A stretch of 64,000 nucleotides of DNA, taken from the UHGV virus genome UHGV-1374671. One strand, 5' to 3'. The notes below the pieces were generated by a model. That model worked only from the letters and a program-made list of their open reading frames with translations. It did no database searches and was not told where the DNA came from. This document shows positions 14,270-56,907 of this stretch, in pieces; position 1 is the stretch's first letter; every line of letters begins with the position of its first letter. The stretch comes from a virus. Position numbers and translations under genes: made by a program.

Positions 14270-15949
14270 ATGATCAAGTACTCTGAAATTCTGACGCCGT
14301 TGCAGCAACACCAGGAAAGAGCCCGGAAACGGGCCCTGGTGCGCGATCTTATCCTGGCTCACTCAACAGGGTCCGGAAAGACTCTCACAGCCATAGCGGC
14401 TGCGGACGCCCTCGGAAAACCCACTACAGTGTTCACGCCGGCGTCCCTGGTTGAGAACTTCCGTAAGGAGCTGGCCAAGCATAAGAAGGGAGGACCTTCG
14501 GTGGAGGTTTGGTCGCTCCCTACCGCAGTGTCCCGCAAGTACAAGGTTCCGGCAGGAAACACGGTCATCATCGACGAGGCCCACGCCTTGCGCAACGAAG
14601 GCACCGCCAGGCAGAAGTACATCAAGGAGCAGCTACAGAACGCCGGCCGCGTGATCGGGCTTACTGGCACTCCGGCATACAACGACATTGCGGATTGGTC
14701 CCAGTTGGTGAATCTGGTTGCACGTAAGCGCGTCGTACCCAGTGACCGCAGCGAGTTCCGCAATCGTTACATCAACGAGCGGGAAGTGCGCCCCGGGCTG
14801 TGGGCCAGGCTTGTTCACGGTGTGAAACCCGGCGTCGTGGACGAGTTGAAGAACGCTGACGAGCTCCGGGAAAAGATGGCGCCCTATGTGGACATCTTCG
14901 ACGCCGACGTCGAGAAGCCGGAGCGGAAGGATGAGGTTATCGAGGTTCCCATGAACCAGCAGCAGATCGGCACCTACAAGTACGTGACGCAGGCCATGCC
15001 TACGGCGCTGTTCTGGAAGCTGACCCACAACCTGCCTCCCAGCAAGGCGGAGGCGAAGTCCCTGAACGCGTTCTATTCCGGCGTCCGACAGGTGGCCAAC
15101 ACACCGGAGGCGTTCTCTGCTGAGCCTGTGGAGCCTGGAGAGAAGATCAAGAGAGCGGTGCAGGAGCTGAAGAAGCGCATGAAGGACAACAAGGGGTTCC
15201 GTGCGCTGGTGTACAGCAATTATCTCGGCTCCGGCATCGATTCCTACGGCAGGTTGCTGGACAAGGAAGGGATACCGTACCGCAAGTTTACCGGTCAGCT
15301 CAGCACTGCTGAAAAGAAGTCCATCGTGGACGCCTACAACAAGGGAGAGGTCCCGGTGATTTTGGGATCCGGCTCGGCGTCGGAAGGGTTGGACTTGAAG
15401 GGCACCAGATTGATTCAGATTCTGGAGCCGCACTTCAACAACGCCAAGACCGACCAGGTGATCGGGCGCGGCATCCGGTACAAGTCTCACGACCATCTTC
15501 CGCCTGATCAGCGCAATGTGACAGTGCAGAAGTACATCAGCACGTTTCCGACCACCAGGAACTGGCTTGGGTTCAAGCGGGAGCCTCAGTCTTCCATTGA
15601 CCAGTACCTGACCAGCAGGGCGGAGGAGAAGGACCAGCTCATAGATCAGGTCAAGAACACACTGATCGACAACACCAAGACAGCAGCATGCAAGTGCAGA
15701 ACAGCGAGGTACGGCTTGAGCAAGATCATTTCATTCTTTGATGTGAAGAACCGCAAAGTGGTACGAGTTCCTATTGAGCAGTGCTACAAGTGCATGTACA
15801 CGCCCCGCAACCACAGCCAGGCCGTTGTGTACGCAGTGCGCGCTGTTACGGAGGACGGCACCAGGCTGACTCGTTTTGTTCCGGCCAAAGAGTACAGAAT
15901 TTTGAAATGCAGGGAATGTGACGAGCATGGCGGACACACCAACATTTGA
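14270..15949 (+). CDS. SNF2/Rad54-family DEAH-box helicase with C-terminal Cys-rich zinc-ribbon-like tail
   Basis: Motif I ILAHSTGSGKTLTA, motif II IIDEAHALRN, motif III LTGTPAYN, motif VI QVIGRGIRY. C-terminus CKCRTARYG...CYKCMY...CRECDEHGGH. Confidence 0.85.
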   Translation: MIKYSEILTPLQQHQERARKRALVRDLILAHSTGSGKTLTAIAAADALGKPTTVFTPASLVENFRKELAKHKKGGPSVEVWSLPTAVSRKYKVPAGNTVIIDEAHALRNEGTARQKYIKEQLQNAGRVIGLTGTPAYNDIADWSQLVNLVARKRVVPSDRSEFRNRYINEREVRPGLWARLVHGVKPGVVDELKNADELREKMAPYVDIFDADVEKPERKDEVIEVPMNQQQIGTYKYVTQAMPTALFWKLTHNLPPSKAEAKSLNAFYSGVRQVANTPEAFSAEPVEPGEKIKRAVQELKKRMKDNKGFRALVYSNYLGSGIDSYGRLLDKEGIPYRKFTGQLSTAEKKSIVDAYNKGEVPVILGSGSASEGLDLKGTRLIQILEPHFNNAKTDQVIGRGIRYKSHDHLPPDQRNVTVQKYISTFPTTRNWLGFKREPQSSIDQYLTSRAEEKDQLIDQVKNTLIDNTKTAACKCRTARYGLSKIISFFDVKNRKVVRVPIEQCYKCMYTPRNHSQAVVYAVRAVTEDGTRLTRFVPAKEYRILKCRECDEHGGHTNI

Positions 15950-29128: not shown

Positions 29129-29992
29129 ATGGACGGTCAGATCACAGACATGCCGGTAAACGCGGTTCCTGGCCCTGTACAGCAGGGTTCAGGCTCCACC
29201 GTGTCAACACCCGTGTCGCCGGCTATCTCTCCTGTAAACGCCCCTGCTGTGCCCGCAAAACCGGATCCGCAGAAGGCATTTGCCGGAGCGACTTCCAACA
29301 TGCTCCGTGCCCAGCAGAAGTTCATCGCGGACGTGCTGACGGAGAAGCCGGTCACCATGTACCGGATGGACGACTATCCGACGATCCGGCGCACGTTGTT
29401 CGAGAATGTCAAGGAGGCCGTGTCCAAGCGTTTCCCGCTGTACAACGACAGGTATACGTTGGAGTTGGAGAACGTGGATTACGACGATCCGGAGGAACTG
29501 GACCTGCCGGAGCAGAAACAGGCGATTCTGGAAGGACGCTCCTGTTCCAGACGGCTGCGTGGCACCTGGGTGCTGCGCGACGCCGCCACCAACAAGGTGG
29601 TGGACAGATCCAAGCGCATGACCCTGATGAAAGTTCCGTACATGACGGATCGCGGTACTTTCATCCGCAATGGACACGAGTACACTTTCACCAACATCAT
29701 GCGCATGGAGCCAGGAGTCTACACCAAGCAGAAGGATGATGAGATCTCGGCCCAGTTCAACATCAAGAAGGGAACCGGGGCCGGCTTCAATATGCGTTTG
29801 ATCCCCAGTACCGGCATCTTTCAGATCAGTCGTGGCACCACGAATTGTCCGGCGTATGCTGTGCTGCATGATCTGGGCGTTTCTGACGAGCAGATGCAGA
29901 AGGCCTGGGGAGAGGAACTGTTCAAGAAGAACAAGGAAGCGGGTACGGGCGAGAAAGCGCGTATCGCAGCCAACAAGATATACAACATGTGA
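29129..29992 (+). CDS. hypothetical protein
   Basis: Complete ORF, weak RBS. No domain recognised. Confidence 0.45.
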   Translation: MDGQITDMPVNAVPGPVQQGSGSTVSTPVSPAISPVNAPAVPAKPDPQKAFAGATSNMLRAQQKFIADVLTEKPVTMYRMDDYPTIRRTLFENVKEAVSKRFPLYNDRYTLELENVDYDDPEELDLPEQKQAILEGRSCSRRLRGTWVLRDAATNKVVDRSKRMTLMKVPYMTDRGTFIRNGHEYTFTNIMRMEPGVYTKQKDDEISAQFNIKKGTGAGFNMRLIPSTGIFQISRGTTNCPAYAVLHDLGVSDEQMQKAWGEELFKKNKEAGTGEKARIAANKIYNM

Positions 29993-37721: not shown

Positions 37722-37731
37722 GGTACATACA

Positions 37732-42122: not shown

Positions 42123-42142
42123 CCCAATAAAGGAGATCTACA

Positions 42143-42922
42143 ATGAAGAAATTGTTGATTGGGCTGTGTGCCCTGTGTGCTCTGGCAGTGAGTGCAGCTG
42201 AGAATCCGATGAACACCGTACGGACGACCAAGAACGTGGAAGAGCTTCCTGCCGTTCTGCAGGCTGCCTCTGCTGAGATTACGCTTCAGTCGCCTGAGAA
42301 CCGTCGCGTTGATCTGTGTGTTGCCTACGGGCTCGCTTACCTGCGCAGCACAGATGTCCCGACCTTCGACGCCTACATCAAGGTCGTACAGGACAAGGCG
42401 ATCGAGCTGAAGTGCTGGGATGCCTGCAAGATCACGGGTAACGTGTTTGAAGTGCTGCGCCCTTGGTGGATCGGCGAAAAGTTTACCAAAGCGCTTACGG
42501 ATCCGGCCATTGAATGGATTGCCGCCAACCCGCACGTGAATCTGTACAGCAAAGCTGCTATCCTGAGTTACGATCACGAGGACTATGCACAGGCAGTCAG
42601 CTGGTGGGAGAAACGCAAGGGCGGCTCGGCGTATGCGATTATTGCGTACGCCAAGCTGGGGCAGCTCGATGCCGGCATCGACTATTTCTACTCCAAGCTG
42701 GGTACGAAAGAGTGGTCTCCCGAGTCCGGTGTAAACGCCTTTAAGAAGGCCTGGGAACTGGTGCTGGAAAAGAGCAAGTCGGACCCGGCGGTGCTGGACA
42801 AATACAAGAAGCTCAACGCCACGTACGCCAGCATGTACACCAACTACCTGTATGACGCATCAGATCCTGCGAAGTCCCCGTGGCGGCCGCTGGTTACCCT
42901 GCTGACCGCCCAGTCCAAGTAA
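42143..42922 (+). CDS. secreted helical-repeat protein (paralogue A)
   Basis: SD AAGGAG. Signal peptide MKKLLIGLCALCALAVSAAE. C-terminus ...SPWRPLVTLLTAQSK. Confidence 0.55.
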   Translation: MKKLLIGLCALCALAVSAAENPMNTVRTTKNVEELPAVLQAASAEITLQSPENRRVDLCVAYGLAYLRSTDVPTFDAYIKVVQDKAIELKCWDACKITGNVFEVLRPWWIGEKFTKALTDPAIEWIAANPHVNLYSKAAILSYDHEDYAQAVSWWEKRKGGSAYAIIAYAKLGQLDAGIDYFYSKLGTKEWSPESGVNAFKKAWELVLEKSKSDPAVLDKYKKLNATYASMYTNYLYDASDPAKSPWRPLVTLLTAQSK

Positions 42923-42938
42923 CAGAAGGAACCCTATA

Positions 42939-43730
42939 ATGAAAACTCTTAAGCTGATCACTTGTCTCCTGTTCACGTTTATCGGATGTGTGGGCTTTGC
43001 GGGCTACACTGAAGATTTCCGGATGGCAGACAGCCCGGAAAATATGCAGGCCGTGCTTACCAGATGGGAAGCAGAGTTGCCGAACATGACGAAGGAGGAA
43101 AAGGTCAAGTTCTCCGGTATGAAGATGCTGTACTACTTCCGCACCACTGAGAACCCGACCTATGCTGCCGGACGCCAGATCTACATGGAGCAGATCAAGA
43201 AGCTCGGTGTGGAAAAAGAGGGCATGGAGAGCTCTTTCCTGCTCGGTCCGGTGCATCCGTGGTGGTGCGCCAAGAAGAACGTTGCGCTGATGGAGGAGGC
43301 TCTTGCGTATGTTGAGACGTTGGACAAGGTCACCGCAACGCAGTGGGCGGAGGCCGGACGCATCCTGGCCTTTGCGCTGGACCGCAGGACGGAGGCCATC
43401 GAATATTTCGAGAGCGCCGGACCGAATGGGTATAAGGAGCTGATCCGCGTGTACAAGGAACTCGGCAATGCGGACAAGGCTGTTGAGACTTATTACAAGG
43501 CCGTTGAATCCGAAGGAATGTCCGCGAAGGATGCCGCAGCACAGTTCCAGGTTATCTGGCCGTTGCAGGTTAAGAGCTTCAAGAACGCGGAAGATCGAGC
43601 TGCTGCCAAGTTCCGGCTGCAGACGCTGGTCGACCAGTACACCAACAAGCTGTACACTGATACCAGTGTGAAACCGGAGAACTCTCCGTGGCGCGCGGCG
43701 CTTACGCTGTGGACGGCCAACGCGAAGTAA
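42939..43730 (+). CDS. lipoprotein, helical-repeat (paralogue B of 42143)
   Basis: Signal peptide + lipobox LFTFIGC. C-terminus ...SPWRAALTLWTANAK matches the neighbour. Confidence 0.55.
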   Translation: MKTLKLITCLLFTFIGCVGFAGYTEDFRMADSPENMQAVLTRWEAELPNMTKEEKVKFSGMKMLYYFRTTENPTYAAGRQIYMEQIKKLGVEKEGMESSFLLGPVHPWWCAKKNVALMEEALAYVETLDKVTATQWAEAGRILAFALDRRTEAIEYFESAGPNGYKELIRVYKELGNADKAVETYYKAVESEGMSAKDAAAQFQVIWPLQVKSFKNAEDRAAAKFRLQTLVDQYTNKLYTDTSVKPENSPWRAALTLWTANAK

Positions 43731-43750
43731 ATCGGTACACAGCTTCTCAT

Positions 43751-43800
43751 AACGGGCTTATTGGTCGGATCACGGTCAGTAAGCCCGTTGTATTGTTGTG
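43751..43800 (+). terminator. terminator-like hairpin
   Basis: 10-bp stem AACGGGCTTA / TAAGCCCGTT with a long loop, then GTATTGTTGTG. Confidence 0.45.
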
Positions 43801-43856
43801 GTAAGCACTTCAAATTGATGTAACGCGGAGCCTGAAATAAAGAGGACACACACAAC

Positions 43857-44486
43857 ATGACATACGCGGAATTCGAGAAACAGGCTGCCTTGTTGGACGT
43901 CGGGATCGATACGGATCCGGATAAGCCGATGAAAGTTGAGGTTGACAAAGAGATCCCGGTAGGTATCGAAAAGGAAATCAATGTCAGGCTACGGCAGCCT
44001 ATCGACATCAATCTGATACCCTCACAGATTACCCCGGAGAACGCCGCTCTTATTGGCGCACTTGGCGGTGGTACTCTTGGATACCTGTTCGGACCTGAAA
44101 AGAAACTGCCCAAGCTGATTGCCACATTGGCGACCGCAGGAGCCGGCGGACTTGGTGGTTACTACGGTGCGAAGCTGCTGCGGAAAAGCGCTTCTATTGG
44201 ATTCCTGAACAAGCTGGCCGCCGTCAGACCGTTCCAGGTGGACAAGGTGCTGGACCGGCAGGAGAAGAAGGAACGTAAGCGCACTGTAAAAGCCAGCCCC
44301 ACGTTGATTCAAATGATCCGCCAATTCAGTGCCCCGGATGTCAACCCTGGTATTCGATATACGAGATCCGGCCTTGAGGGACTGACCCAGGAAGAGCTGG
44401 AAGACCTCTATATGCGGGACATGGCTGTAGCCGCACTTCAGGAGCGGGCTGTCAGCGCAGGTACCAACGATAGCACATCGAACTAA
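43857..44486 (+). CDS. glycine-zipper membrane protein
   Basis: SD AAAGAGGA. ALIGALGGGTLGYLFG...ATAGAGGLGGYYGAKLL. Confidence 0.55.
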   Translation: MTYAEFEKQAALLDVGIDTDPDKPMKVEVDKEIPVGIEKEINVRLRQPIDINLIPSQITPENAALIGALGGGTLGYLFGPEKKLPKLIATLATAGAGGLGGYYGAKLLRKSASIGFLNKLAAVRPFQVDKVLDRQEKKERKRTVKASPTLIQMIRQFSAPDVNPGIRYTRSGLEGLTQEELEDLYMRDMAVAALQERAVSAGTNDSTSN

Positions 44487-44504
44487 TGATAGGAAGTGTT
44501 GATT

Positions 44505-45122
44505 ATGTTGTTCAACGATTTTGTCAAGATGGCGGAAGAAGAAAACACCGACAATAAGAAGCCCGATATCGAGGGCGCGGTTCCAGTTTCTCAGAAAGAT
44601 CTTAACGTCACCTCTCCCAGTAACGTGGAGAAGGGACGCCACGGAATGGAACACGGGAAAGAGGACAACCCCGACAACGACCATGCCCTCGTCATGAACC
44701 TGCTGTACAAGGCGCTGGCTGATGAGCTGCTCGCCTGGTATCAATACTGGGTGTGCCGTAACCTGTCCCGTGGTCCTGGCAAGTTCGACGTGGATCCCGA
44801 GTTCGAGGAGCACATGAAAGAGGAATGGGAACATGTCGACTGGGTGATGGAGCGCATCAAGGAGCTCGGCGGCGCTCCCTACACCAATCCGAACCAGTGG
44901 TTGCCGAATGCGAACCCGTGGCCGGAAGTCACTGAAACCTCCGTACCCGCTCAGCTGGACAAGACCATCGAAGCCGAGAATACCGCGATCAAGTTCTACA
45001 AAGAAGCCTGCGAGGCGGTCCGGCATGTCGATCTCACCACGTACACGCTGTTCAAAAAGATTCTTGGTGAGGAAGAAAAGCATGCCTACGATCTGCACAT
45101 GCTGAAGGAAGCCGTGCAGTAA
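44505..45122 (+). CDS. ferritin-like four-helix-bundle protein (bacterioferritin/Dps-like)
   Basis: The ATG at 44505 has AGGAAGTG upstream. Iron-site-like spacing LADELLAWYQYW...EEWEHVDWVMERIKELGG...AENTAIKFYKEA...LGEEEKHAYDL. Confidence 0.55.
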   Translation: MLFNDFVKMAEEENTDNKKPDIEGAVPVSQKDLNVTSPSNVEKGRHGMEHGKEDNPDNDHALVMNLLYKALADELLAWYQYWVCRNLSRGPGKFDVDPEFEEHMKEEWEHVDWVMERIKELGGAPYTNPNQWLPNANPWPEVTETSVPAQLDKTIEAENTAIKFYKEACEAVRHVDLTTYTLFKKILGEEEKHAYDLHMLKEAVQ

Positions 45123-45168
45123 GCTACGGCAATACAGTAGACTCGAACGATATAGGAAGCAAGCCCTT

Positions 45169-48100
45169 ATGGATGATATCAACGTGACGCCTGTTTTGGC
45201 GGACAGCTCCACAGTGGAGAACATTCAGGTTCGCCCGCAGCGTCCTCCCAAAACGGCAGCTGACTGGGTGCGCGACATGCGCATGTCTCCTGAAGTGAAC
45301 AAGACCACTGTCGGTGTGGAGACGGACCGGATAACTCCTGAGTTGCTGATGGCCACGTCGTCCAAGCTGCTTGGTATCTCCAGACGGGAGCAGGATCCGG
45401 ATCCCAAGGATTCCCTGCTCTTCCAGCGCTTCTACGGGCCGGCCGAATACTTTGCAGAACACATTCTGCGGGACGGCAACAAGGTGGCCCGTAACCTGCT
45501 GTGGAAAGCAACCAACAAGGGCAAGATTGACTTCGTACCGTCAGGAGCATTGGATCAGCACGTCAGCGATGTGTTCTACAGCAGCAAGCTGGCCCAGATG
45601 ATCGACGGGTCGTCTCCTTTGGAAACGGTGGACGCTTCCTTCAAGACCACCCGTATCGGCGAGGGCGGCGTCGCAGATGTGCAGTCGGCTCCTGATGAGA
45701 TGCGTACAGTGCAGCCTTCCTACTTCGGATACCTAGACTCCGTGCGCTGCTATTCGGACGATACCGAACTCATGACCAAAAATGGCTGGAAATTCGTTAC
45801 CGATATTACGGAAGACGATGAGCTTGCATGTTATATGGACGGCAGGTTGGAGTACCACAAACCAACCGCATTGAATGTATACGACTACAAGGGCAAGATG
45901 TACGGATACAAAGGTACGCATATCTCGTACCTGGTGACACCGAATCACCGGATGCATTCCAGATGTTATGGAGAACTCAGAGATGGGCGTCCTTGTGGTT
46001 ATAACATTCGTACAGCTGAGAGCATTCACGGTAAGAACAGGGTTGTAGATTCTGCCTGCCATTTGCCGTTACTGTGCAATGAGGATCAGAAATACTTTGA
46101 GCTCCCTGTGGTAGGTCCTAATCTGAAGAAAGAGCAGGTTCATGGCAATCCGCCAATGGGCGCCAGCTTGAAGAACGTGGACAAAGTGGACATCGTGAAG
46201 TTTGCCGAGTTCCTCGGATGGTACCTGGCTGAGGGTTCCTATGTGATCAATGAAACCAAAGGATACTACCGCGTTGATATTGCACAGTCCCCGGAAGTCA
46301 GTGCGGAAAACTACGAGCATATCAGACAGCTGATAGAATCTCTTCCCTTCAACGCAACCAATCCAGGTGCCGAGGAAAAAGCAAAAAGGGGCGGGCATGC
46401 CTTGTCCATCGCCAGAAAACAGCTGACCATATACGTCAGTCAGTTTGGAAAGTGCGAAGACAAGTACATACCTGAGTGGATTTTCTCAGCTCCGTTACAG
46501 GCCCGCAAAGCGTTTTGTTGGGCCCTTCTGCAAGGAGATGGACGGGAACAGAGACATCTCTGCACAAAGTCAAAGCGACTGGCTACTGACTTTGCCCGCC
46601 TGCTTTTTGAATTGGGTGAATCTGCCAAAGTATACCACGAAAAAGAAACCAGATATGAAAACCATCCTGGTATCTGGAATGTTTACTGGCACACCCGCAA
46701 AGAACGTCTTTTGGCTGGAAAAACACATAAGCACAAGGAAGGTGAATATTTCACTGAAGACTATACCGGCAAAGTGTACTGCCCGACCATACCTGGCGGT
46801 CTGGTGTACTGCCGCAGAGGCGAAAAGAGCGTTGGTTTCTGGTGCGGTAATAGTCCGGAGAGGTTACGCGTCGGATTGGATATGTATATGACCAAGAATG
46901 TGGTCAAGGGATCCGATGGAAAGCTGTACCAGAGATTCATCAACGCGCGTACCGGCAAGGAGGAGCTGGTTGACTCCGTAACAGCTTCCAGATCCATTGT
47001 GGCAGCGCCTGAGATGATGGACGCCGATACCAAGTCCATCTTCGCTCTTGGTGGTCGTACTGGCGTACGTATCGTACCCAAGGATAAGGTTGATTATTAT
47101 TTACCCAGAGCCGACGATGCGTACAGCATGTCGTCCAATATGGTGCCCATGTTCAATGGTGTGAAGGAAATGCGCCTGCTGATGGGATGCCTGCATCCGG
47201 GTACTCCGTTGATCACCATATCGGCGAAGAACGAGATCAACATCAAGCCGGCGAAATCCATTGGCAAGAATGCTTATGGAGTGCCTGGCTGCGATGCCAA
47301 AGGCAAGTCGCTGGGGTATCTGATCCGTAACAGCATTGCCAAGTTTCCCCAGAAGCGCAAGTGGTTCAAGAAGGTCGTGCTGATGTCGGGGCGGTCCCTG
47401 ATCACCAGCTACGATCACAGATGGCCAGTGCTGCGGGACGACAAGCTGGAGCTGGTGAACGCATCCGATCTTCAGCCCGGGGACAAGGTGCTCAGATCCA
47501 CGTTCAAGGATCTGCCCAATCGACGCACCTTTTTGCGCGGCGTACTGGTGAACAAGGATGTTGCCACGCTGCTGGGCTGCATCGTAAGGTCGGTCACCAA
47601 ACCTGACCCGGACAAGCTCCGGGTGGTGTACCAGCCTTCTCAGAAGAAGTTCATCGAGGCAGCCATCGAACGGCTCAAACTGGAGAACTCCCGCTTCTAC
47701 GCCAATGCCGGCGAGAAGTGCCTTGCCATTCATGACAGCAACTTCATCCAGTGGGTGGAGAAGGAGATCTGTCTGGAGCCGGAAGAGCGCAAGGTCCCCA
47801 CTGTGATTCTCAGTGCGTGCCTGGACATTGCGTCTCACTTCATCGACGCTTACACGGCCGACACCACCAAGGTCGGCATCGACAGCAACGAGGACATGTG
47901 GATCCTGGATATCCCCAGCATGATCTGCCGTGACGGTCTTGCGTTGCTGCTTGCCAGAATGCAGACGGATACCCTGTACCGGGATGCTGTGCGGGCAGAC
48001 GGAGTCAATCTGGCGTTGAAGCTGGTGGAACAGACCCCCACCTTCGGGGATTCCATTGTGGACGAGGTGAAAATTATACTCGAAGTAGAAAAGGTCCCGC

Positions 48101-51100
48101 TCATGATTGACATCGATATCGATGACAACATGTATGCGACCGCCAATGGAATCATCACACACAACTCCAAGTACCCGTTGCAGGCCATCTCCCTGCTGGA
48201 GCGGGAAGCTCCTTTGGTGAGAGGGCTGGATGAGGCGTCCGGCAGGGACATCCCGTCGTTGGCAGGCAAGTATCTCGGCGCCAGATTCGCCAACCAGGGC
48301 GGCACCGTCACCGCTGTGCGCAAGGACCGCATCGACGTCGTCTACGACGACGGCACCAAGGGCAGCGTTTCCCTGTACCAGAATTTCCCGATGAACGCCA
48401 AGGGGTACATCACCAACACGCCTGTGGTGAAAGCGGGACAGTCCTTCAAGAAGGGAGATGTATTAGCGGCGTCGAACTATACAGACGACAAAGGCGTGGC
48501 GGCCATCGGCAAGAATCTGAGATCCGGCTGGCTGTCCTGGAAGGGCGGCACCTATGAAGACGCTGTTGTAATCTCCGAATCAGCCGCCAAGAAGTTGACC
48601 AGCCGTACCATGTACAAATCGGCAGTCGACCTCGACAAGACAGTCAGTTTGGGAAAGAAGAACTACGTCTCCTGGAAGCCGTCCGAGTACACCAAGGACC
48701 AGCTGTCGGCGCTGGATGACAACGGAATCATTAAGCCGGGTTCCGTGCTTCGCAAAGGAGACCCGATGATTCTGGCGGTGCAGACATCCGAACCCTCTCC
48801 CGGGACGCTTGGCAAGCGCGTGCTGACGGATATCTCCGAGACCTGGGAACACGACCATCCGGGTGTGGTCACTGACGTGGTCAAGACCAGGAAGGGTGTG
48901 AAGGTGTTTGCCATTGTGGAAGCACCTGCGGAAGTGGGGGACAAGGTAAGCGGGAACTTCGGCAACAAGGGAGTAGTCTCGCAGCTTGGTAGAGAGTCCC
49001 AGGAAGAACAGGACGACGAGAACCAGGACTTCCAGATCCAGAAGATCGTACCGGACGCCATGATGCCCATTGGAGAGGACGGCAAGCCTCTGGATCTGCT
49101 GTTCAGTCCTCTTGGGCTTATCTCCCGTACGAACGCTTCCCAGATCCACGAGGCTCTTCTGGGCAAGATCGCCCGTAAGACTGGAAAACCGTTCGTCATG
49201 CCGGCCTTCTACAAGGGCGACCTTACGGAGTTCGTGGAGAACCAGCTGAAACAGAACAAGGTCAGCGACACGGAAGACCTGACGGATCCTTATACCGGCA
49301 GGAAGATCCCCAAAGTGCTGACCGGTGTGTCGTACATCTACAAGCTCAAGCACCAGGCCGAGTCCAAGCTGTCCGCACGCGGTACTGCCGAGTACACTGC
49401 CGAGGGCACGCCGGGTGGTTCTGGACTCACTGGGAGCAAAAGGTACGGAACTTTGGAGCAGTCCGCGATGGTCGGCCACGGTGCGTTTGACAACCTGCTT
49501 GATGCGAAACTCCTGCGTGGCCAGTCGAACTCGGATTTCTGGCGCAGCATCCGTACTGGAGAGATCCCGACGATTCCTGGAGAGCCCCTGGTGCACAAGA
49601 AGTTCTTCGCCCACCTTACAGGCTCCGGTGTGAACGTGCGCAAAACCCCGAAGGGCATCAGCGTGTTCTCGTTGTCCAACGACGATGTGAAAGAACTTGC
49701 CGGCCCCCGTGAGCTGAAATCCAAGGACACCTACGAAGCCAAGACATTCCGTCCCATCGATGGAGGACTCTTTGGTCAGGACCTGTTCGGCCCCAATGGA
49801 GACCGCTGGGCATACATCCAGCTGGACGAACCTCTGCCGAACCCTGTAATGGAGGAGCCTCTGGCGCGTCTTCTCAGAATGTCCACCAAGGACTTCATGG
49901 CAGTGGCCGCCGGCAAGGCTGAAGTGAATGGAATGAAATCCTCCGCCGACATCAAGGAACGCCTGTCCAGGATCAACTTGAAGGCCGAGGAACAGCAGGC
50001 CAAGCAGGAGTTCAAGGACGCCCCGATGTCTAAGAAGGACGCGGCGCTGAAGCGTTATCGGGACATCGCCCGCATGGCTGCGAATGAAGTGTCCCCTGAC
50101 CAGTACATGCTGGATAGGATTCCGGTGCTGCCTCCTGTCTTCCGTCCTGTCAGTACGCACAACGGACTGACCATGGTGGCCGACAGCAACTACCTGTATG
50201 CGCAGATGCTGGACGCCAGAGACGACGCCCGGGAAGCCCGCAACCTGCCCAAGGAATACCAGCAGCAGGCCAGGGAAAACCTGTACCGAAGCTGGAAGGA
50301 GCTGACCGGCATGTACGAGCCCGAGAACGTGAAGCTGAAGAACAAGCACGTGCGGGGGCTTCTGAAGTGGGCGCTTGGTGACAGTCCAAAATGGTCCGCG
50401 TTTCAGAGAAAGGTATTGGGCTCCACGGTGGACACGGTAGGCCGTGGTGTTATCACTCCGGATCCGCGCCTGAAGCTGAACCAGCTCGGCGTTCCTCTGC
50501 CGATGGCGTTGGGCATCTATGAGCCGTTCGTTGCTCGATCCATGGTCAAGCAGGGGTACTCTCCTGTGGAAGCCATGAAGATGATCAAGGTCCAGGACAA
50601 GCGCGTGATACCAGTGCTGCTTAACGTGATGAAGAACAGCCCTGTGCAGCTGAATCGGGCACCTTCGCTCCACAAGCTGAACATCATGGGATTCGAGCCT
50701 GTGCTCACTGCCGGGCACGCTGTCCGGGTAAACCCGTCCATTGTGGTGCCCTTTGCGGCGGACTTCGACGGCAACTGCTGCGATTTTGATAGTGTAATTT
50801 TCCTAAAATTATCAAAATCTGCGCTTGAAAAAACTGCTTTTATGTGCTATGTTGATCATAGTAACAAACCCGAACAAAACAAGGAGGTTTCTATGATCAC
50901 GGAAGACACAAGAGTCGTGGTGTTCAACCCGGATGAGACTGACCCGGATACTGTGTACTGCTCTATGAAGATCGGGGAGTTCCCGCGTAAGGGGGTGCCG
51001 GTGAAAGACCGGAACGGTGCTTTGGTGTACCCGGTTCCAGAAGGGGTAAGCGTACTGTCCTGCGACCCAGTTACAGGTGCTCCGAAGTTCTGCCCTGTGT

Positions 51101-52542
51101 CGGCTGTAACAGTGGAGGAGAACTGCCATACGGTAGAGTTGACTCTCGGCAGCAGAAAGATCATCGTGTCGGATAACGAATCCCTGGCCGCGTTCGACAG
51201 CAAGGCAGGTACGTTGATCAAAGTGTCCCCGGCAGAGATCGGAGATCGGATGATTCCTGTTCTGAAAAAGCAGCAGCTGCCATATGGCCCGTTCGGCACC
51301 AGGGACCTCGGCTGGATGTTCGGTGCGTTCATCTCCGATGGCTGGGTCACGCACAATATGGTGGGATACGCCAAAGTGGAAGCCAACAAGCGTGCTGAGT
51401 TCGTCAGGATCATGCGTGCGTATCACGAGAACTTTACTTGCAACGAATACACTGATCGTCCGCAGGCTGGAAAGAACAAGTTGGGCGCCTCCGTTAAGTT
51501 GCACCTGTGCAGCAAATCCCTGGCAGACTGGATGCGCAACTGGCAGCTCATAAACGAGGACTGTCCTGCGGCAGAGCGTGCTGCGCTGCGGAAGCAGATA
51601 AACAGCAAGATGATTCAGTACGGCTCCGAGGACTTCCTGTGGGGGCTGTTCTCCGGTCTCCTGGACGGTGACGGGTCCATCAGCAAAAACACGACGATGG
51701 AGAAGCCGCGCTTTACAGCCAGATTCAGCACCTCCAGCAAACAGCTGGCGGACGACATCTGCGCACTGTGTTATCGACTGGGTCTGCGTTACTCCATGAC
51801 CGTGGTACCTCCCAGAGGATTCTCCAATACGGCATACATCATCATCCCGTCCACTATTGACTTGCATGCCAAGCTGGACAAGCTCACCTGTATTGGTGAG
51901 CGGGAGATTCAGCTTATCTCGGAATGGAAGCAGCAGCCGTCGTACAAAGACACCAAAGACATGATCCCGCTGTCTGTTAAAGAAGCGGAAGTGCTGATTA
52001 AGCTGGCGAACGCCAGGAAAGACGTAGGAGTGTCCTCCGGGATCTACAAGACTAGAAAGAAGTCCTGTATCTACGGTGGTCGTGTTGGGCTGATGCGTTA
52101 CTGCGAGGAAATCAAGGAGATGTTCCCTGAGTTATACGCCCGTATTAAAAACGAGGACACCATTTGGCAGACTGTCACTTCCGTGGAGGACGCCGGCAAT
52201 CGCCAGGTGTTCGACTTGATGGTTGAGGGTACGAAAGTGTTTGCCATCAACAACGGCGTGATTATCTGGGACACCGCCAACGTGCACGTACCGGTATCCG
52301 ACAACGCCAGACGGGAGACCTATGAGAAGATGTTCCCGGAACGCAATCTGATCTCCATGCGTGAGCGCAAGGTGCTGTACAAGCCCGAAAAGGAGTACAT
52401 GCAGGGGATCTACGTGGCGACCCGCATGAAGAAGGGCAAGGATGTCCGACCGAAGATCTTCGGATCTGTGGAAGAAGCGCGTCAAGCGTTACGCAAGGGC
52501 ATTATTGATATTGATGATCCTATTGAAATACGCAAGCAATAA
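45169..52542 (+). CDS. bacterial-type RNA polymerase: beta C-terminal half fused in frame to beta' N-terminal half, interrupted by two inteins
   Basis: Aligns by eye to E. coli beta: TRIGEGGVADVQS...PSYFGY vs RISALGPGGL...PTHYGR; GDKVSGNFGNKGVVSQ vs GDKMAGRHGNKGVISK; PLGLISRTNASQI vs PLGVPSRMNIGQI. Then directly to beta': TFRPIDGGLFGQDLFGP vs TFKPERDGLFCARIFGP; PVLPPVFRP; PVLLNRAPSLHKLNIMGFEP; FAADFDGN...TANVHVP vs NADFDGDQMAVHVP. Confidence 0.85.
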   Translation: MDDINVTPVLADSSTVENIQVRPQRPPKTAADWVRDMRMSPEVNKTTVGVETDRITPELLMATSSKLLGISRREQDPDPKDSLLFQRFYGPAEYFAEHILRDGNKVARNLLWKATNKGKIDFVPSGALDQHVSDVFYSSKLAQMIDGSSPLETVDASFKTTRIGEGGVADVQSAPDEMRTVQPSYFGYLDSVRCYSDDTELMTKNGWKFVTDITEDDELACYMDGRLEYHKPTALNVYDYKGKMYGYKGTHISYLVTPNHRMHSRCYGELRDGRPCGYNIRTAESIHGKNRVVDSACHLPLLCNEDQKYFELPVVGPNLKKEQVHGNPPMGASLKNVDKVDIVKFAEFLGWYLAEGSYVINETKGYYRVDIAQSPEVSAENYEHIRQLIESLPFNATNPGAEEKAKRGGHALSIARKQLTIYVSQFGKCEDKYIPEWIFSAPLQARKAFCWALLQGDGREQRHLCTKSKRLATDFARLLFELGESAKVYHEKETRYENHPGIWNVYWHTRKERLLAGKTHKHKEGEYFTEDYTGKVYCPTIPGGLVYCRRGEKSVGFWCGNSPERLRVGLDMYMTKNVVKGSDGKLYQRFINARTGKEELVDSVTASRSIVAAPEMMDADTKSIFALGGRTGVRIVPKDKVDYYLPRADDAYSMSSNMVPMFNGVKEMRLLMGCLHPGTPLITISAKNEINIKPAKSIGKNAYGVPGCDAKGKSLGYLIRNSIAKFPQKRKWFKKVVLMSGRSLITSYDHRWPVLRDDKLELVNASDLQPGDKVLRSTFKDLPNRRTFLRGVLVNKDVATLLGCIVRSVTKPDPDKLRVVYQPSQKKFIEAAIERLKLENSRFYANAGEKCLAIHDSNFIQWVEKEICLEPEERKVPTVILSACLDIASHFIDAYTADTTKVGIDSNEDMWILDIPSMICRDGLALLLARMQTDTLYRDAVRADGVNLALKLVEQTPTFGDSIVDEVKIILEVEKVPLMIDIDIDDNMYATANGIITHNSKYPLQAISLLEREAPLVRGLDEASGRDIPSLAGKYLGARFANQGGTVTAVRKDRIDVVYDDGTKGSVSLYQNFPMNAKGYITNTPVVKAGQSFKKGDVLAASNYTDDKGVAAIGKNLRSGWLSWKGGTYEDAVVISESAAKKLTSRTMYKSAVDLDKTVSLGKKNYVSWKPSEYTKDQLSALDDNGIIKPGSVLRKGDPMILAVQTSEPSPGTLGKRVLTDISETWEHDHPGVVTDVVKTRKGVKVFAIVEAPAEVGDKVSGNFGNKGVVSQLGRESQEEQDDENQDFQIQKIVPDAMMPIGEDGKPLDLLFSPLGLISRTNASQIHEALLGKIARKTGKPFVMPAFYKGDLTEFVENQLKQNKVSDTEDLTDPYTGRKIPKVLTGVSYIYKLKHQAESKLSARGTAEYTAEGTPGGSGLTGSKRYGTLEQSAMVGHGAFDNLLDAKLLRGQSNSDFWRSIRTGEIPTIPGEPLVHKKFFAHLTGSGVNVRKTPKGISVFSLSNDDVKELAGPRELKSKDTYEAKTFRPIDGGLFGQDLFGPNGDRWAYIQLDEPLPNPVMEEPLARLLRMSTKDFMAVAAGKAEVNGMKSSADIKERLSRINLKAEEQQAKQEFKDAPMSKKDAALKRYRDIARMAANEVSPDQYMLDRIPVLPPVFRPVSTHNGLTMVADSNYLYAQMLDARDDAREARNLPKEYQQQARENLYRSWKELTGMYEPENVKLKNKHVRGLLKWALGDSPKWSAFQRKVLGSTVDTVGRGVITPDPRLKLNQLGVPLPMALGIYEPFVARSMVKQGYSPVEAMKMIKVQDKRVIPVLLNVMKNSPVQLNRAPSLHKLNIMGFEPVLTAGHAVRVNPSIVVPFAADFDGNCCDFDSVIFLKLSKSALEKTAFMCYVDHSNKPEQNKEVSMITEDTRVVVFNPDETDPDTVYCSMKIGEFPRKGVPVKDRNGALVYPVPEGVSVLSCDPVTGAPKFCPVSAVTVEENCHTVELTLGSRKIIVSDNESLAAFDSKAGTLIKVSPAEIGDRMIPVLKKQQLPYGPFGTRDLGWMFGAFISDGWVTHNMVGYAKVEANKRAEFVRIMRAYHENFTCNEYTDRPQAGKNKLGASVKLHLCSKSLADWMRNWQLINEDCPAAERAALRKQINSKMIQYGSEDFLWGLFSGLLDGDGSISKNTTMEKPRFTARFSTSSKQLADDICALCYRLGLRYSMTVVPPRGFSNTAYIIIPSTIDLHAKLDKLTCIGEREIQLISEWKQQPSYKDTKDMIPLSVKEAEVLIKLANARKDVGVSSGIYKTRKKSCIYGGRVGLMRYCEEIKEMFPELYARIKNEDTIWQTVTSVEDAGNRQVFDLMVEGTKVFAINNGVIIWDTANVHVPVSDNARRETYEKMFPERNLISMRERKVLYKPEKEYMQGIYVATRMKKGKDVRPKIFGSVEEARQALRKGIIDIDDPIEIRKQ
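45748..48165 (+). mobile_element. intein 1 (806 aa) with LAGLIDADG homing endonuclease, in the beta segment
   Basis: Begins with Cys (CYSDDTELMTKNGWKFV), block B VTPNHRM, LAGLIDADG motifs LGWYLAEGSY and ALLQGDG, ends ...GIITHN followed by Ser. Confidence 0.7.
50776..52272 (+). mobile_element. intein 2 (499 aa) with LAGLIDADG endonuclease, inserted inside the NADFDGD catalytic loop of beta'; atypical C-terminus ...IIWD
   Basis: Starts CCDFDSVIF right after DFDGN. LAGLIDADG motifs MFGAFISDGW and LFSGLLDGDGSI. C-terminal block VFDLMVEGTKVFAINNGVIIWD followed by T(ANVHVP); the canonical ending would be VVHN. Confidence 0.6.
50780..50895 (+). promoter_or_regulatory. AT-rich island inside intein 2 with TTGAAA-N17-TATGTT, SD AAGGAGG and an in-frame ATG
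   Basis: tgtaattttcctaaaattatcaaaatctgcgcTTGAAAaaactgcttttatgtgcTATGTTgatcatagtaac...AAGGAGGtttctATG at 50893, same frame as the host ORF. Local GC is far below the surrounding ~58%. Confidence 0.45.
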
Positions 52543-54600: not shown

Positions 54601-56907
54601 GTGACCATGTTGACGACACTGGGCAGAGAACTGATTCGGGCAAAGCTCCCCGAGAAGTACAAGGGGTACGCGGATCAGGTTCTGGACAAGAAAACACTGA
54701 CCAATCTGATGACCGAGATCGCCAGAGAGGATCCGGAAGGGTACATCGACGTTCTGCAGGATCTCAACAACATTGGACAGGAAGTCGTGTCCACATACGG
54801 ACGGGACACCTCGCTCTCGTATGCAGACCTGAAAGTCGACAATGAGATCAAAGCCCTGAACAAGCGCCTGCGGCAGGTCATCAAGGGAGTCCTCAATGAC
54901 GATTCCCTTACCAGCGAGCAGAAGGAAGAGAAGATCAAGGAACTGGGATACAAGTACACGCAGAAGGTGCAGGACGCGGTATTCCAGGACAACGACAAGC
55001 GAGGAACGTCGCTGGCCTCCCAGATCAACTCAGGCTCTCGTGGAAATAAAACCCAGTTGATGCAGCTCCAGTTCGGCAACATGCTGATGAAAGATGCACT
55101 CAACCGGGACATTCCTTATCTGATGATAGACCCGTTCGTCCATGGTGCGTCACCGATGTCGTACTGGGTGTCCGCGTCCAGTGGGCGCAAGGGGTTCTTC
55201 GATGTGCAGGCCGCCACCGGACAGGCCGGATATCTGGGCAAGCAGGTGACAGCCGCCACACACAGAACCACCATTGAGAAAGAGGACTGCGGCACCACCG
55301 ACACCGGAGTGCCGTTTCCTGCCAACAGCACGAAGAACGTGGGCGCGGTTCTGCTGCGCCCCTTCCACAAATACCCGGCAGGCACGGTTGTCACTGAGAA
55401 GATGGTTGCCGAGGCCGATGACGACGAGGAGATGATTCTGCGCAGTCCAACCACCTGCAAGTGCAAGGACGGCATCTGCGCCAAGTGCAATGGGCTGGGA
55501 GAGAATGGGAAGTTTCCGGCAGTGGGCGAGTATGTGCCGCTGAATGCTGCGCGTTCTTTTGTTGAGCCGGTTACGCAAGGAGGGATCTCGTGTCTGCATC
55601 CTGGAACACAGGTACGTATGGCAGACTGGTCTATCAAAGCACTGCGTGATATCAGGGTAGGCGATCGCGTTATGGGCGTTCACACCGATGGTTCTTATGA
55701 ACCCGCCCTCGTCACCCGGACGTTCGATAATGGCATTGTTCCGATGTACTTGACAAAGTTCCGTAAGGGCACTGATAAGATTGCCGTGCTGATGTCCACC
55801 ACATGTCACAAAATGCTCTTATCTGTCGACGGGGATGCTCCTGCCATTCTTCCTGTAGGTACAGATGGCCAGCTCAGCGCGTGTCAGACTATCGGACCTG
55901 CAGGGTATACTGATAAGCAGATTAAGATGTCACACTTCAAACGCATCTCTCAGGAATATATCGGAGACATGCAATCGCTGGATATTGAGATCGACAACGA
56001 CTCCCATCTGTTTCTGTTGGCCAATGGCCTGGTGGTTTCCAATTCCAAACATGGCGCGGGTATTGGAGGCAAGCGATGGGTCGATCCCGAGGGGCCTGAC
56101 CAGCCGCACGGGTTCCGTGCCCTTGAGCGTCTGTTCATGGCTCCCAGCAACTTCCCGGGCGGAGCCGTACTTGCCCCGCAGGACGGCACGGTAAGCAACA
56201 TTCAGAAGGCCTCCCAGGGCGGCCATTACATCACGGTGGGCAACAAGACGCTGTACTGCTCTCCAGATCGCACTATGAAAGTCAAAGTCGGGGACAAGGT
56301 GTCCGCCGGCGACGTACTTACCAATGGTGTGCCCAATCCTGCCGAGGTGATGGATCTCAAAGGACTGGGAGAGGGCCGGCATTACTTCGTCAACAAATTG
56401 AACGAAACCTTGAAGGCACAGGGCTGGGCAACAGACCGCAGAAATATCGAGGCGTTTACACGCAGCATGATTAGTAAGGTCAAAATCACCGACCCTGACG
56501 GATACAAGTCGTATCTGCCTGGTGATATTGCCGATTACAACGAGATCATGGCTGACTGGGAGCCCAGGGAAGGATCCGTCACAGTGAAAGCGGATCAGGC
56601 GCTGAACAAGTACCTGGAGAAACCGACCCTGTACTTCAGCGTCGGCACCAGGATCACCCCGTCAGTTGTGCAGCAGTTGAAGAAATACAAGTTTGATACT
56701 GTGACGGTGTCGGATAAGGAGCCTCCTTTCAAAGCTCAGTTCCTGCGTCCTGCTGTTGTGCTGCAGAACGACAAGAACTGGTTGCCCAGGCTGGCGGGAG
56801 AGCGGCTGCAGCCAGCACTGTTTGATGCAGCGCAGAAGGGCATCACCGACGAGTACGACTCGCCGAGTTACGTTGACAAAATCGTGGCGGCGCCATTTAA
56901 ACCATAA
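54601..56907 (+). CDS. RNA polymerase beta' C-terminal half, with mini-intein
   Basis: [20 protein letters not shown] vs [28 protein letters not shown] vs VTEDDCGT; Zn/Cys cluster; EPVTQGGIS...SKHGAGIGG vs GEPGTQLTMRTFHIGG. Confidence 0.85.
   Translation: [768 protein letters not shown]
55591..56043 (+). mobile_element. mini-intein (151 aa, no endonuclease) in the beta' trigger-loop region
   Basis: [13 protein letters not shown]..., block B [9 protein letters not shown], ends LANGLVVSN followed by Ser. Confidence 0.75.

What the first reader, a model, noticed from the sequence alone, without database searches (positions are those of the whole stretch)
45169..52542. Beta (C-half) and beta' (N-half) of a bacterial-type RNA polymerase fused in one ORF, with split-subunit architecture
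The ORF aligns colinearly with E. coli beta from the RISALGPGGL region to its C-terminus. Without a stop it then continues into the beta' N-terminus (TFKPERDGLF-like, PVLPPxLRP, PVLLNRAPSLH, NADFDG). The beta' C-terminal half is a separate gene (54601-56907), and the beta N-terminal half is absent or unrecognisably divergent. Split beta/beta' genes are what I associate with jumbo-phage multisubunit RNAPs, but a betaC::beta'N fusion combined with split termini is not something I recall (established knowledge, not checked). Here it sits in a GC-rich genome.
Basis: partly seen in the sequence, partly recalled or inferred. Interest (0 to 1): 0.8.

Follow-up and report, generated by a model that had tools for sequence, protein, structure and literature searches.

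The report
Phage RNA polymerase with fused β–β′ subunit
A large phage encodes a bacterial-type RNA polymerase cut into three unusual pieces, one of which joins the rear two-thirds of β to the front of β′ and must shed three inteins; the layout is real and common in uncultured phages but no paper I could find describes it.

Summary
The 2457-codon ORF (45169-52542) is real. With three inteins removed, the 1264-aa product aligns without a break to bacterial β (about 478-1157) and then β′ (about 33-563). Four independent assemblies carry the same syntenic ORF, and dN/dS is about 0.05, so it is neither an artefact nor a dead gene.

It was wrong that the β N-terminus is missing: that part is ORF 29129-29992.

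The fusion is not unique. A junction-spanning query finds 1022 cluster representatives, and all of the best 150 span the junction. Cultured relatives (Salmonella phage Arash gp206/gp216, Vibrio phages D69/D181) carry a complete β::β′N fusion. Published Arash proteomics finds these proteins abundant in virions, but labels gp206 only "β".

The polymerase is closer to bacterial and mReC-type enzymes than to phiKZ-type ones. I rate it a new variant of a known kind.

The oddest feature is the intein inside the catalytic DFDGD loop. Every carrier of this Cys1-type intein (31/31) has Asn in place of the third Mg-binding Asp; every other sequence (147/147) has Asp. Standard splicing would give DFDGN. 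This is unexplained and can be tested by mass spectrometry.

The parts
45169..52542 (+). Precursor ORF (2457 aa, 274.8 kDa). It encodes the fused beta(C two-thirds)::beta'(N-part) RNAP subunit interrupted by three inteins. The predicted mature product is 1264 aa, 140 kDa, and has no cysteine.
45169..49656 (+). Beta-homologous portion (ORF aa 1-1496, including inteins 1 and 2). Extein residues 131-797 align to bacterial beta about 478-1157. The beta active-site motif GDKVSGNFGNKG is present.
49657..52539 (+). Beta' N-terminal portion (ORF aa 1497-2457, including intein 3). It starts at ISVFSLSNDDV (matching beta' IKIALASP...). It contains the clamp helices, PVLPPVFRP, NRAPSLH and the DFDG(N/D) catalytic loop, and ends just after the double-psi beta-barrel. 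The N-terminal Zn ribbon is absent (no Cys).
45748..46851 (+). Intein 1 (aa C194-N561, +1 Ser) with a LAGLIDADG endonuclease. It is inserted in the beta motif YFGYLDSVR|SPE (matching HYGRxCPIETPEG). Block B TPNH is present; the intein ends in GN.
47188..48165 (+). Intein 2 (aa C674-N999, +1 Ser), canonical ...THN|S. It is inserted in beta LLMG|SKYPLQA (matching ANRALMGANMQRQAVP). It is present in most of the close clade.
50776..52272 (+). Intein 3 ('type A', aa C1870-D2368, +1 Thr), HINT + LAGLIDADG fold, inserted inside the Mg-binding loop: AADFDGN|C...VIIWD|TANVH. It is non-canonical: -1 is Asn instead of the third catalytic Asp, block B reads SDNE (no His), and block G reads WD instead of HN.
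29129..29992 (+). Beta N-terminal module as a separate gene (287 aa, 32 kDa). It is colinear with residues 1-215 of fully fused homologs and with bacterial beta about 40-240. It carries a Pro/Ala/Val-rich N-terminal extension of about 60 aa.
54601..56907 (+). Beta' C-terminal subunit precursor (768 aa; mature 617 aa, 68 kDa). It contains the bridge helix, trigger loop and second Zn cluster, and is the homolog of Arash gp216.
55591..56043 (+). Intein 4, a mini-intein (aa C331-N481 of the beta'C ORF, +1 Ser) inserted in the trigger loop: EPVTQGGIS|SKHGAG.
14270..15949 (+). SNF2-family helicase, 40% identical to Arash gp217. In Arash, gp217 lies next to the beta'C gene and is a virion protein. 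Probable RNAP accessory factor (tentative).

Best explanation
The window comes from a large tailed phage that encodes its own bacterial-type multisubunit RNA polymerase, divided in an unusual way.

Gene layout (shown from sequence):
- betaN (29129-29992).
- betaC fused directly to beta'N (45169-52542).
- beta'C (54601-56907).

Maturation (inferred from intein motifs and from intein-free alleles): four inteins sit in core catalytic elements, namely the beta fork motif, the beta NMQRQAVP-like motif, the beta' DFDGD loop and the trigger loop. They must splice out to give mature chains of about 32, 140 and 68 kDa.

Role of the fusion (inferred): in cellular RNAP the C-terminus of beta and the N-terminus of beta' lie together in the clamp. 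That is why natural (Helicobacter) and engineered beta-beta' fusions work. Here the tether most likely ensures 1:1 co-assembly of the two barrel-bearing modules. No alpha or omega homolog turned up among about 40 window ORFs scanned. The split after the beta' barrel lies close to the cyanobacterial and phiKZ split.

Biological role (by homology to Salmonella phage Arash): there the orthologs gp206 and gp216 are among the most abundant virion proteins, together with a sigma factor and the SNF2 helicase gp217. By analogy, this enzyme is probably packaged and injected to transcribe phage genes independently of the host, probably directed by a sigma factor. The beta' clamp helices that bind sigma are retained.
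For: - ORF continuity and domain order.
- Colinear alignment to solved beta, then beta'.
- beta'C mapping. betaN mapping.
- Intact catalytic motifs.
- Same fused ORF in four independent assemblies with the same synteny.
- 422 homologs, with both Rpb2_6 and Rpb1_2 in one chain in the 120 listed.
- Census: 1022, 885 and 229 representatives at E<=1e-3, 1e-10 and 1e-30, and all of the best 150 span the junction.
- Cultured phages show a single-piece match of 96-97% coverage, with the partner beta'C gene nearby.
- Arash virion proteomics: gp206 has 100% coverage and 3516 spectra, and gp216, gp217 and sigma gp10 are also in virions (PMC10585845).
- Purifying selection: dN/dS 0.046 (beta) and 0.059 (beta'N).
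- Intein-free alleles give the exact extein junctions.
- Helicobacter precedent for a beta-beta' tether: PMC9696931.
Against: - No protein-level data exist for this phage. Splicing, polypeptide size and activity are inferred.
- Canonical splicing of intein 3 would leave DFDGN, which lacks one carboxylate ligand of Mg2+A (PMC13198411). Activity of the mature enzyme is therefore not assured.
- No sigma factor was found in the 64-kb window.
- Absence of alpha and omega was checked only with Pfam on about 40 window ORFs, not on a complete genome.
- Virion packaging rests on a relative that is only about 29% identical.
- A GAAGGG...GTG at the junction could in principle act as an internal start.
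Confidence: 0.85

Rival explanations
1. The read-through is a sequencing or assembly artefact. In reality a stop codon separates a betaC gene from a beta'N gene.
For: None found. More distant phage relatives do have separate beta and beta' genes, for example Rhizobium RHph phages, where the beta' match starts at query residue 816.
Against: Four independent assemblies from different samples have the identical architecture. All of the best 150 cluster representatives match across the junction in one stretch. Isolate genomes (Arash, Vibrio D69) have the same continuous ORF. In Arash, gp206 is covered 100% by peptides.
Confidence: 0.01
2. The ORF is continuous, but the working enzyme uses separate betaC and beta'N chains. 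These would arise by internal translation initiation or by proteolysis at the junction, so the fusion would be only a genetic arrangement.
For: An SD-like GAAGGG lies 7 nt before a GTG codon at the junction. No protein data exist for this phage.
Against: The linker is only about 5 residues. The junction sequence is conserved across the family and aligns as one stretch. The tethered form is known to work in Helicobacter. There is no ATG near the junction.
Confidence: 0.07
3. The gene is a decaying or inactive copy, overloaded with selfish elements and catalytically dead because the third Asp of DFDGD is Asn.
For: The extein reads DFDGN. The Asp triad coordinates Mg2+A. The Asp is 147/147 conserved in all other family members.
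Against: dN/dS is about 0.05 across the beta and beta'N exteins between two carriers of this intein, the same as against an intein-free relative. All other catalytic motifs are intact. There is no paralogous copy in the window. The Asn state is found in 31/31 carriers spread over at least 15 clusters at 50% identity, so it is stably maintained.
Confidence: 0.05
4. It is a member of the phiKZ/AR9-type jumbo-phage split RNAPs (virion or non-virion RNAP).
For: beta' is split after the barrel domain and beta is split, as in those enzymes (PMC7598289). An SNF2 helicase co-occurs with the RNAP genes, as noted for group 1 jumbo phages (PMC7824862).
Against: The best PHROGs are other, unannotated families, and the PHROGs annotated as RNA polymerase beta subunit score far worse. 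Similarity to bacterial beta/beta' is strong (E about 1e-47), whereas the jumbo-phage enzymes are described as fast-evolving and hard to place on a tree. Relatives encode and package sigma factors, which phiKZ-type phages lack. The betaC::beta'N fusion is not part of the phiKZ scheme.
Confidence: 0.05

Closest known systems
Salmonella phage Arash gp206 + gp216, and Vibrio phages D69/D181/D148 (orthologous genes in cultured phages)
   Same: beta fused to beta'N in one chain, with a separate beta'C gene a few kb downstream. The portal gene lies upstream, and an SNF2 helicase homolog (Arash gp217; 14270-15949 here, but about 40 kb upstream of beta'C rather than adjacent) is also present. Coverage is 96-97% at 29-30% identity. 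The Arash proteins are abundant in virions.
   Different: In these phages the beta N-terminal module is part of the same chain (1525-1527 aa), and there are no inteins. D181 and D148 instead carry a group I intron with a homing endonuclease. In the window lineage betaN is a separate gene, displaced by 15 kb of inserted genes. The published annotation calls gp206 simply 'beta' and does not mention a fusion.
Helicobacter/Wolinella RpoB-RpoC fusion (tethered beta-beta')
   Same: The C-terminus of beta is joined covalently to the N-terminus of beta' in one ORF (PMC9696931, citing Zakharova et al. 1998 and 1999).
   Different: The cellular fusion joins two complete subunits and works with alpha2 and omega. 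Here beta' is truncated after its barrel domain, beta lacks its N-terminal module, and no alpha or omega was seen.
mReC phages (Weinheimer & Aylward 2020, PMC7481178): Caudovirales with a deeply branching multisubunit RNAP
   Same: A phage-encoded RNAP close enough to cellular beta/beta' to align well, found in large phage genomes from metagenomes. The best PHROG matches here are full-length beta-like and beta'-like phage families.
   Different: mReC is described with separate beta and beta' genes, each of at least 800 aa. No fusion, split or intein is mentioned. Whether this family lies inside mReC was not tested.
phiKZ/AR9-type jumbo-phage split RNAPs
   Same: beta' split after the barrel domain, beta split in two, no alpha or omega, and an associated SNF2 helicase.
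   Different: Those enzymes have 4-5 separate chains and never a betaC::beta'N fusion. They are highly divergent, and their phages encode no sigma factors.
Cyanobacterial/chloroplast gamma (RpoC1) / beta' (RpoC2) split
   Same: beta' is divided shortly after the catalytic barrel. The fused protein aligns to gamma 193-559 of 626, and beta'C residue 71 aligns to RpoC2 residue 56.
   Different: The boundary is not identical: by alignment the phage beta'C starts about 15 residues before RpoC2. In cyanobacteria gamma is not fused to beta.

Membership tests
Bacterial-type multisubunit RNAP catalytic core (beta/beta') | beta barrel with the conserved Lys motif (GDKxxGRHGNKG) and Rpb2_6 domain | tested here: met
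   GDKVSGNFGNKG at extein 563; Rpb2_6 E 5e-43; aligns to beta 478-1157.
Bacterial-type multisubunit RNAP catalytic core (beta/beta') | beta' barrel with the invariant NADFDGD Asp triad | tested here: inconclusive
   The loop is present but reads AADFDGN after canonical intein removal. The third Asp is Asn, and the N458-equivalent is Ala. Intein-free relatives read AADFDGD.
Bacterial-type multisubunit RNAP catalytic core (beta/beta') | Bridge helix and trigger loop | tested here: met
   GASPMSYWVSASSGRKG and EPVTQGGIS|SKHGAG in the beta'C extein; aligns to beta' about 587-1167.
Bacterial-type multisubunit RNAP catalytic core (beta/beta') | alpha2 assembly platform and omega | tested here: not met
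   No RNAP alpha or omega Pfam hit in about 40 window ORFs. The complete genome was not available, so this is not a proof of absence.
Helicobacter-type tethered beta-beta' | beta C-terminus continuous with beta' N-terminus in one ORF | tested here: met
Helicobacter-type tethered beta-beta' | Both subunits complete within the fusion | tested here: not met
   beta' ends at about residue 563. betaN and beta'C are separate genes.
phiKZ/AR9-type split phage RNAP | beta' split after the barrel domain | tested here: met
   the review's description is.
phiKZ/AR9-type split phage RNAP | All beta and beta' fragments are separate chains; closest sequence relatives are the phiKZ-type subunits | tested here: not met
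   betaC and beta'N are fused. PHROGs annotated as RNA polymerase beta subunit score E 1e-9 to 1e-13, against 1e-37 to 1e-44 for phrog_24349 and phrog_25354.
phiKZ/AR9-type split phage RNAP | No sigma factor; promoter recognition by a phage-specific fifth subunit | not tested
   No sigma in the window, but relatives encode and package sigma. A gp68-like subunit was not searched for.
Arash-like beta::beta'N + beta'C phage RNAP family (defined here) | Continuous beta|beta' junction, separate beta'C gene, synteny with the portal gene, SNF2 helicase homolog present | tested here: met
Class 1 inteins (applied to intein 3) | Cys/Ser/Thr at position 1 and at +1, with a HINT fold | tested here: met
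   Cys1870 and Thr2369. Pfam Intein_splicing E 2e-11. The model matches TliVMA, PI-PfuI and PI-SceI inteins (E 1e-16 to 5e-10).
Class 1 inteins (applied to intein 3) | Block B TxxH histidine, penultimate His, terminal Asn | tested here: not met
   Block B is S-D-N-E, block G is W-D, and there is no block F His. These are conserved across diverged carriers: the five aligned, and terminal Asp in all 30-31 carriers. The homologous type B keeps D-H in block B.

The most novel reading that the evidence does not exclude
The Cys1-type intein in the Mg-binding loop always comes with Asn in place of the third catalytic Asp (31/31 carriers, against 147/147 Asp elsewhere). It also has a matching His-to-Glu change in intein block B and a terminal Asp. 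The polymerase is nevertheless under strong purifying selection. The most novel reading is that the Asp is regenerated. This could happen by Asn-to-Asp conversion coupled to or following splicing, or by a shifted splice register (G|N...W|D), which is also the most parsimonious insertion at DNA level: GGC[AAC...TGG]GAC. In that case the intein would mask a catalytic residue until it leaves. That would be a new outcome of protein splicing and a built-in switch for polymerase activation. The alternative, a multisubunit RNAP that works with DFDGN, would also be unprecedented.
Probability: 0.2. Interest if true: 0.85.

Novelty: new variant of a known kind. Interest (0 to 1): 0.6.

Why it matters
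- It defines a large family of phage multisubunit RNA polymerases (hundreds of 50%-identity clusters) whose subunit layout has not been described in the literature I could search: betaN | betaC::beta'N | beta'C, or beta::beta'N | beta'C.
- The family shows that the beta-beta' tether seen in Helicobacter and the beta' split seen in cyanobacteria and phiKZ phages can occur together. It offers a minimal, apparently alpha-less enzyme that is close enough to bacterial RNAP for structure-function comparison.
- Cultured members (Arash, Vibrio D69) make it experimentally accessible.
- The gene is also an extreme hotspot for selfish elements, with at least 8 intein sites and group I introns.
- It contains an intein that replaces a universally conserved catalytic Asp by Asn. 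This poses a sharp, testable question about splicing chemistry or about RNAP metal binding.

Tried and rejected
- Megablast of the ORF against GenBank phages: no match, so no close cultured relative.
- Pfam on the betaN ORF: no hit. It was recognised only through the fused homologs and a profile-versus-PDB search.
- Sigma factor: tblastn with the Arash gp196 and D69 sigma genes found nothing in the window.
- Rfam on the whole window: nothing, so no group I intron here. tRNA scan: none.
- Promoter and terminator scans around the genes: not above shuffled expectation.
- Split intein joining betaN to betaC: rejected. betaN ends without intein blocks, and betaC starts with Met followed by extein sequence.
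- Second RNAP copy in the window that could make this one dispensable: none.
- Compensating extein substitution tracking the Asp-to-Asn change: none within 150 aa upstream and 85 aa downstream. beta and beta'C were not tested.
- Literature: ten searches found no description of the fusion or of an intein in DFDGD. One further search was rejected for syntax. Sosunov et al. 2005 on Asp-triad mutants is not held in the library.
- I did not search with the intein alone, because RNAP-hosted copies would have filled the result list.
Full report
**1. Observation**

The window carries an uninterrupted 2457-codon ORF at 45169-52542 (+). It starts at an ATG preceded by an AGGAAG Shine-Dalgarno-like element.

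Pfam finds, in this order:
- RNA_pol_Rpb2_6 (E 5e-43).
- Rpb1_1 and Rpb1_2 (E 8e-19).
- LAGLIDADG_3 and Intein_splicing.

Three intein-sized insertions interrupt conserved RNAP motifs:
- C194-N561.
- C674-N999.
- C1870-D2368.

Their boundaries come from intein blocks and from intein-free alleles in relatives.

The extein-only chain is 1264 aa. Residues 131-797 align to bacterial beta 478-1157. About five residues later, residues 803-1262 align to beta' 33-80 and 191-563 (PDB 8i23 chains C and D, E 4e-47 and 2e-47). The junction is at ORF aa 1496|1497, nt 49656|49657. It reads ...FFAHLTGSGVNVRKTPKG|ISVFSLSNDDVKELAG..., that is, the last helix of beta followed directly by the first strand of beta'.

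**2. Not an artefact and not dead**

- Four contigs assembled independently from other samples (L003-L006) carry the same fused ORF in the same gene order.
- dN/dS between the window and another carrier is 0.046 for the beta exteins and 0.059 for the beta'N exteins.
- The beta Lys motif, NRAPSLH, PVLPPxxRP, the bridge helix and the trigger loop are all intact.

**3. The complete enzyme**

The downstream ORF 54601-56907 is the beta' C-half. It has Rpb1_5, and its extein aligns to beta' about 587-1167 (E 1e-36). A 151-aa mini-intein sits in its trigger loop.

ORF 29129-29992 (287 aa) is 40-45% identical to residues 1-215 of longer homologs in which this module is fused (tblastn E up to 7e-72; alignment). 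Its profile hits bacterial beta residues about 40-240, and the top 47 PDB hits are all beta (E 1.5e-10).

The enzyme is therefore betaN (32 kDa) + betaC::beta'N (140 kDa after splicing) + beta'C (68 kDa after splicing).

Other points:
- The mature fused chain contains no cysteine, and the N-terminal Zn ribbon of beta' is missing. The second Zn cluster in beta'C is kept.
- No alpha, omega or sigma was detected in the window. However, only 64 kb of a genome of probably 180-200 kb is available.

**4. Distribution**

The extein query retrieved 422 proteins. The 120 listed all combine Rpb2_6 and Rpb1_2 in one chain.

A 203-aa query centred on the junction found 1022 representatives of 50%-identity clusters, 885 at E<=1e-10 and 229 at E<=1e-30. 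Every one of the best 150 matched in a stretch that crosses the junction.

Two layouts exist:
- Closer clade (P0001-P0104, mostly >=50% identical): the proteins with an intact N-terminus start where the window ORF starts, so betaN is split off. The clade is crowded with inteins at eight or more sites (extein positions about 194, 309, 573, 627-631, 729-735, 764, 1047 and 1176).
- More distant group (45-49% identical): betaN is fused as well, giving a complete beta::beta'N of about 1450-1490 aa, mostly without inteins.

Cultured phages belong to the second type: Salmonella phage Arash gp206 (1525 aa) with gp216 (606 aa), and Vibrio phages D69, D181 and D148.

Synteny with Arash supports orthology:
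- Window 21897-23789 corresponds to the portal gp204.
- Window 29129-29992 corresponds to the N-terminus of gp206.
- Window 54601-56907 corresponds to gp216.
- The SNF2 helicase at 14270-15949 corresponds to gp217 (40% identity).

In the window, about 15 kb of other genes separates betaN from betaC. These include a 1798-aa lectin-domain protein, an RCC1-repeat protein and a Dps/ferritin homolog.

**5. Function and mechanism**

*Shown:* sequence homology, intact motifs, purifying selection, and conservation of the tether.

*From the literature:*
- In Arash virions gp206 is the most abundant protein (100% coverage, 3516 spectra). gp216, helicase gp217 and sigma factor gp10 are also present (PMC10585845).
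- A beta-beta' tether occurs naturally in Helicobacter and Wolinella (PMC9696931).
- The beta' split after the barrel domain is shared by cyanobacteria and phiKZ-type phages (PMC7598289).

*Inferred:*
- The tether secures stoichiometric assembly of the two barrel modules in an enzyme that seems to lack the alpha platform.
- The enzyme is made late, packaged, and injected for host-independent transcription.
- It probably uses a phage sigma factor. The beta' clamp helices upstream of PVLPPVFRP are retained.

**6. Comparison with known systems**

It works like a tethered bacterial RNAP, but it is not a Helicobacter-type fusion, because both partners are incomplete.

It resembles phiKZ/AR9 enzymes in being split, but it is not one of them:
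- Its best PHROGs are phrog_24349 and phrog_25354, which have no assigned function, rather than the PHROGs annotated as RNAP beta subunit.
- Relatives carry sigma factors.
- betaC and beta'N are fused.

It is nearest in spirit to the mReC phages. That paper describes separate beta and beta' genes and mentions no fusion, split or intein (PMC7481178).

The Arash paper calls gp206 'beta' and gp216 'beta'' without noting the architecture. None of my ten literature searches found a description of it.

**7. The intein in the catalytic loop**

Intein 3 has a genuine HINT + LAGLIDADG fold:
- Pfam hits.
- An AlphaFold model with pLDDT 68.5.
- The best PDB matches are the TliVMA, PI-PfuI and PI-SceI inteins.

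It sits exactly in DFDGD. The intein-free allele reads GGC GAC ACC (G-D-T). The window reads GGC [AAC TGC ... ATC TGG] GAC ACC.

With canonical boundaries (Cys1 ... Asp | Thr+1), the spliced product is DFDGN-T.

Across 178 family members:
- 107/107 sequences without an insertion at this site have Asp at the third position.
- 40/40 with other inteins at this site have Asp. These are type B (Ser/Thr1 ... VQD|T), type C (... LSN|T) and one canonical (... VHN|T).
- 31/31 with the Cys1 type have Asn. They fall in at least 15 clusters at 50% identity and include endonuclease-free mini versions.

Types A and B are homologous over their whole length (hhalign E 4e-44). They differ in a coordinated way:

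| Feature | Type B | Type A (the window's) |
|---|---|---|
| -1 residue | Asp | Asn |
| Residue 1 | Ser/Thr | Cys |
| Block B | D-H | N-E |
| Penultimate residue | Gln | Trp/Tyr |

Both types end in Asp rather than Asn.

No compensating extein change was found nearby. Mg2+A is bound by all three Asp residues, and Mg2+B only by the first two (PMC13198411).

Three possibilities remain:
- The enzyme works with DFDGN.
- The Asn is converted to Asp.
- The splice register is non-canonical.

I cannot decide between these in silico. One mass-spectrometry experiment would.

The lower dS of intein 3 (0.58) compared with its flanks (0.94-1.6) suggests it spread laterally more recently than the host genes diverged.

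**8. Verdict**

- Novelty: a new variant of a known kind. The sequences, including those of cultured phages, are already public, but the architecture appears undescribed.
- Interest: moderate to high (0.6). It is raised by the size of the family, by its experimental accessibility, and by the unexplained Asn-for-Asp intein.

Noticed in passing
window 50773-52272 (ORF aa 1869-2368): Intein 3 sits inside the catalytic DFDGD loop. Its -1 residue is Asn where all intein-free and other-intein relatives have the third Mg-binding Asp (31/31 against 147/147). The intein ends in Trp-Asp instead of His-Asn, and block B has Glu instead of His. Canonical splicing would give DFDGN.
   Followed up: partly
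homologs P0001-P0261 (extein positions ~194, 309, 573, 627-631, 729-735, 764, 1047, 1176): The fused RNAP gene is an extreme intein hotspot, with at least eight insertion sites and up to four inteins per protein (lengths up to 3089 aa). Three or four different intein types compete for the single DFDGD|T site.
   Followed up: partly
homologs P0007, P0028, P0069, P0076 and others (not in the window): 'Type B' insertions of 512-549 aa at the DFDGD site (Ser/Thr1 ... VVQD|T) have no precomputed Pfam intein hit. They are nevertheless clearly homologous to the window's intein 3 (hhalign E 4e-44), so they are a divergent intein family that ends in Asp.
   Followed up: partly
L007 (Vibrio phage D181) 1271-1551 and 1565-2182: In this cultured relative the orthologous beta::beta'N gene is interrupted by a group I intron (RF00028, 100.7 bits, E 1e-26) followed by a homing-endonuclease ORF. 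The record annotates the exons as separate hypothetical proteins.
   Followed up: yes
window 50752-50775 (FAADFDG): The residue equivalent to the universally conserved E. coli beta' N458 of NADFDGD is Ala here. Across the family it varies: N 60, G 56, A 52, C 5, T 5. By my recollection N458 contacts the NTP ribose, so sugar selectivity may differ.
   Followed up: no
window 49657-50100, and the whole extein: The mature 1264-aa fused chain has no cysteine at all. The N-terminal Zn ribbon of beta' is deleted: FGPNGDRWAYIQLDEP replaces the CxC...CxxC segment.
   Followed up: partly
window 29993-45168: About 15 kb of genes lies between betaN and betaC, which are contiguous in one ORF in Arash-type relatives. 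The inserted genes include two glycine-zipper proteins, a 1798-aa Laminin_G_3 (concanavalin-like lectin) protein, an RCC1-repeat protein, a TPR protein and a Dps/ferritin-like protein immediately upstream of the fused ORF.
   Followed up: partly
window 61917-63797: Another ORF (626 aa) has weak Hint-domain hits near its N-terminus. It is homologous to Vibrio D69 VPHD69_0270. In close relatives the corresponding gene is 911 aa with Hint and Intein_splicing hits. It is probably a further intein-bearing gene.
   Followed up: no
window 29129-29310: The betaN protein starts with a Pro/Ala/Val/Ser-rich, low-complexity extension of about 60 aa that is absent from the fused homologs.
   Followed up: no
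window 14270-15949: This SNF2-family helicase is 40% identical to Arash gp217, a virion protein encoded next to the beta'C gene. It may be a conserved RNAP partner (RapA-like).
   Followed up: partly
window 50776-52272 compared with its flanks: Synonymous divergence of intein 3 between the window and L006 (dS 0.58) is well below that of the surrounding exteins (0.94-1.6). This is consistent with lateral transfer (homing) of the intein after the host genes diverged.
   Followed up: partly
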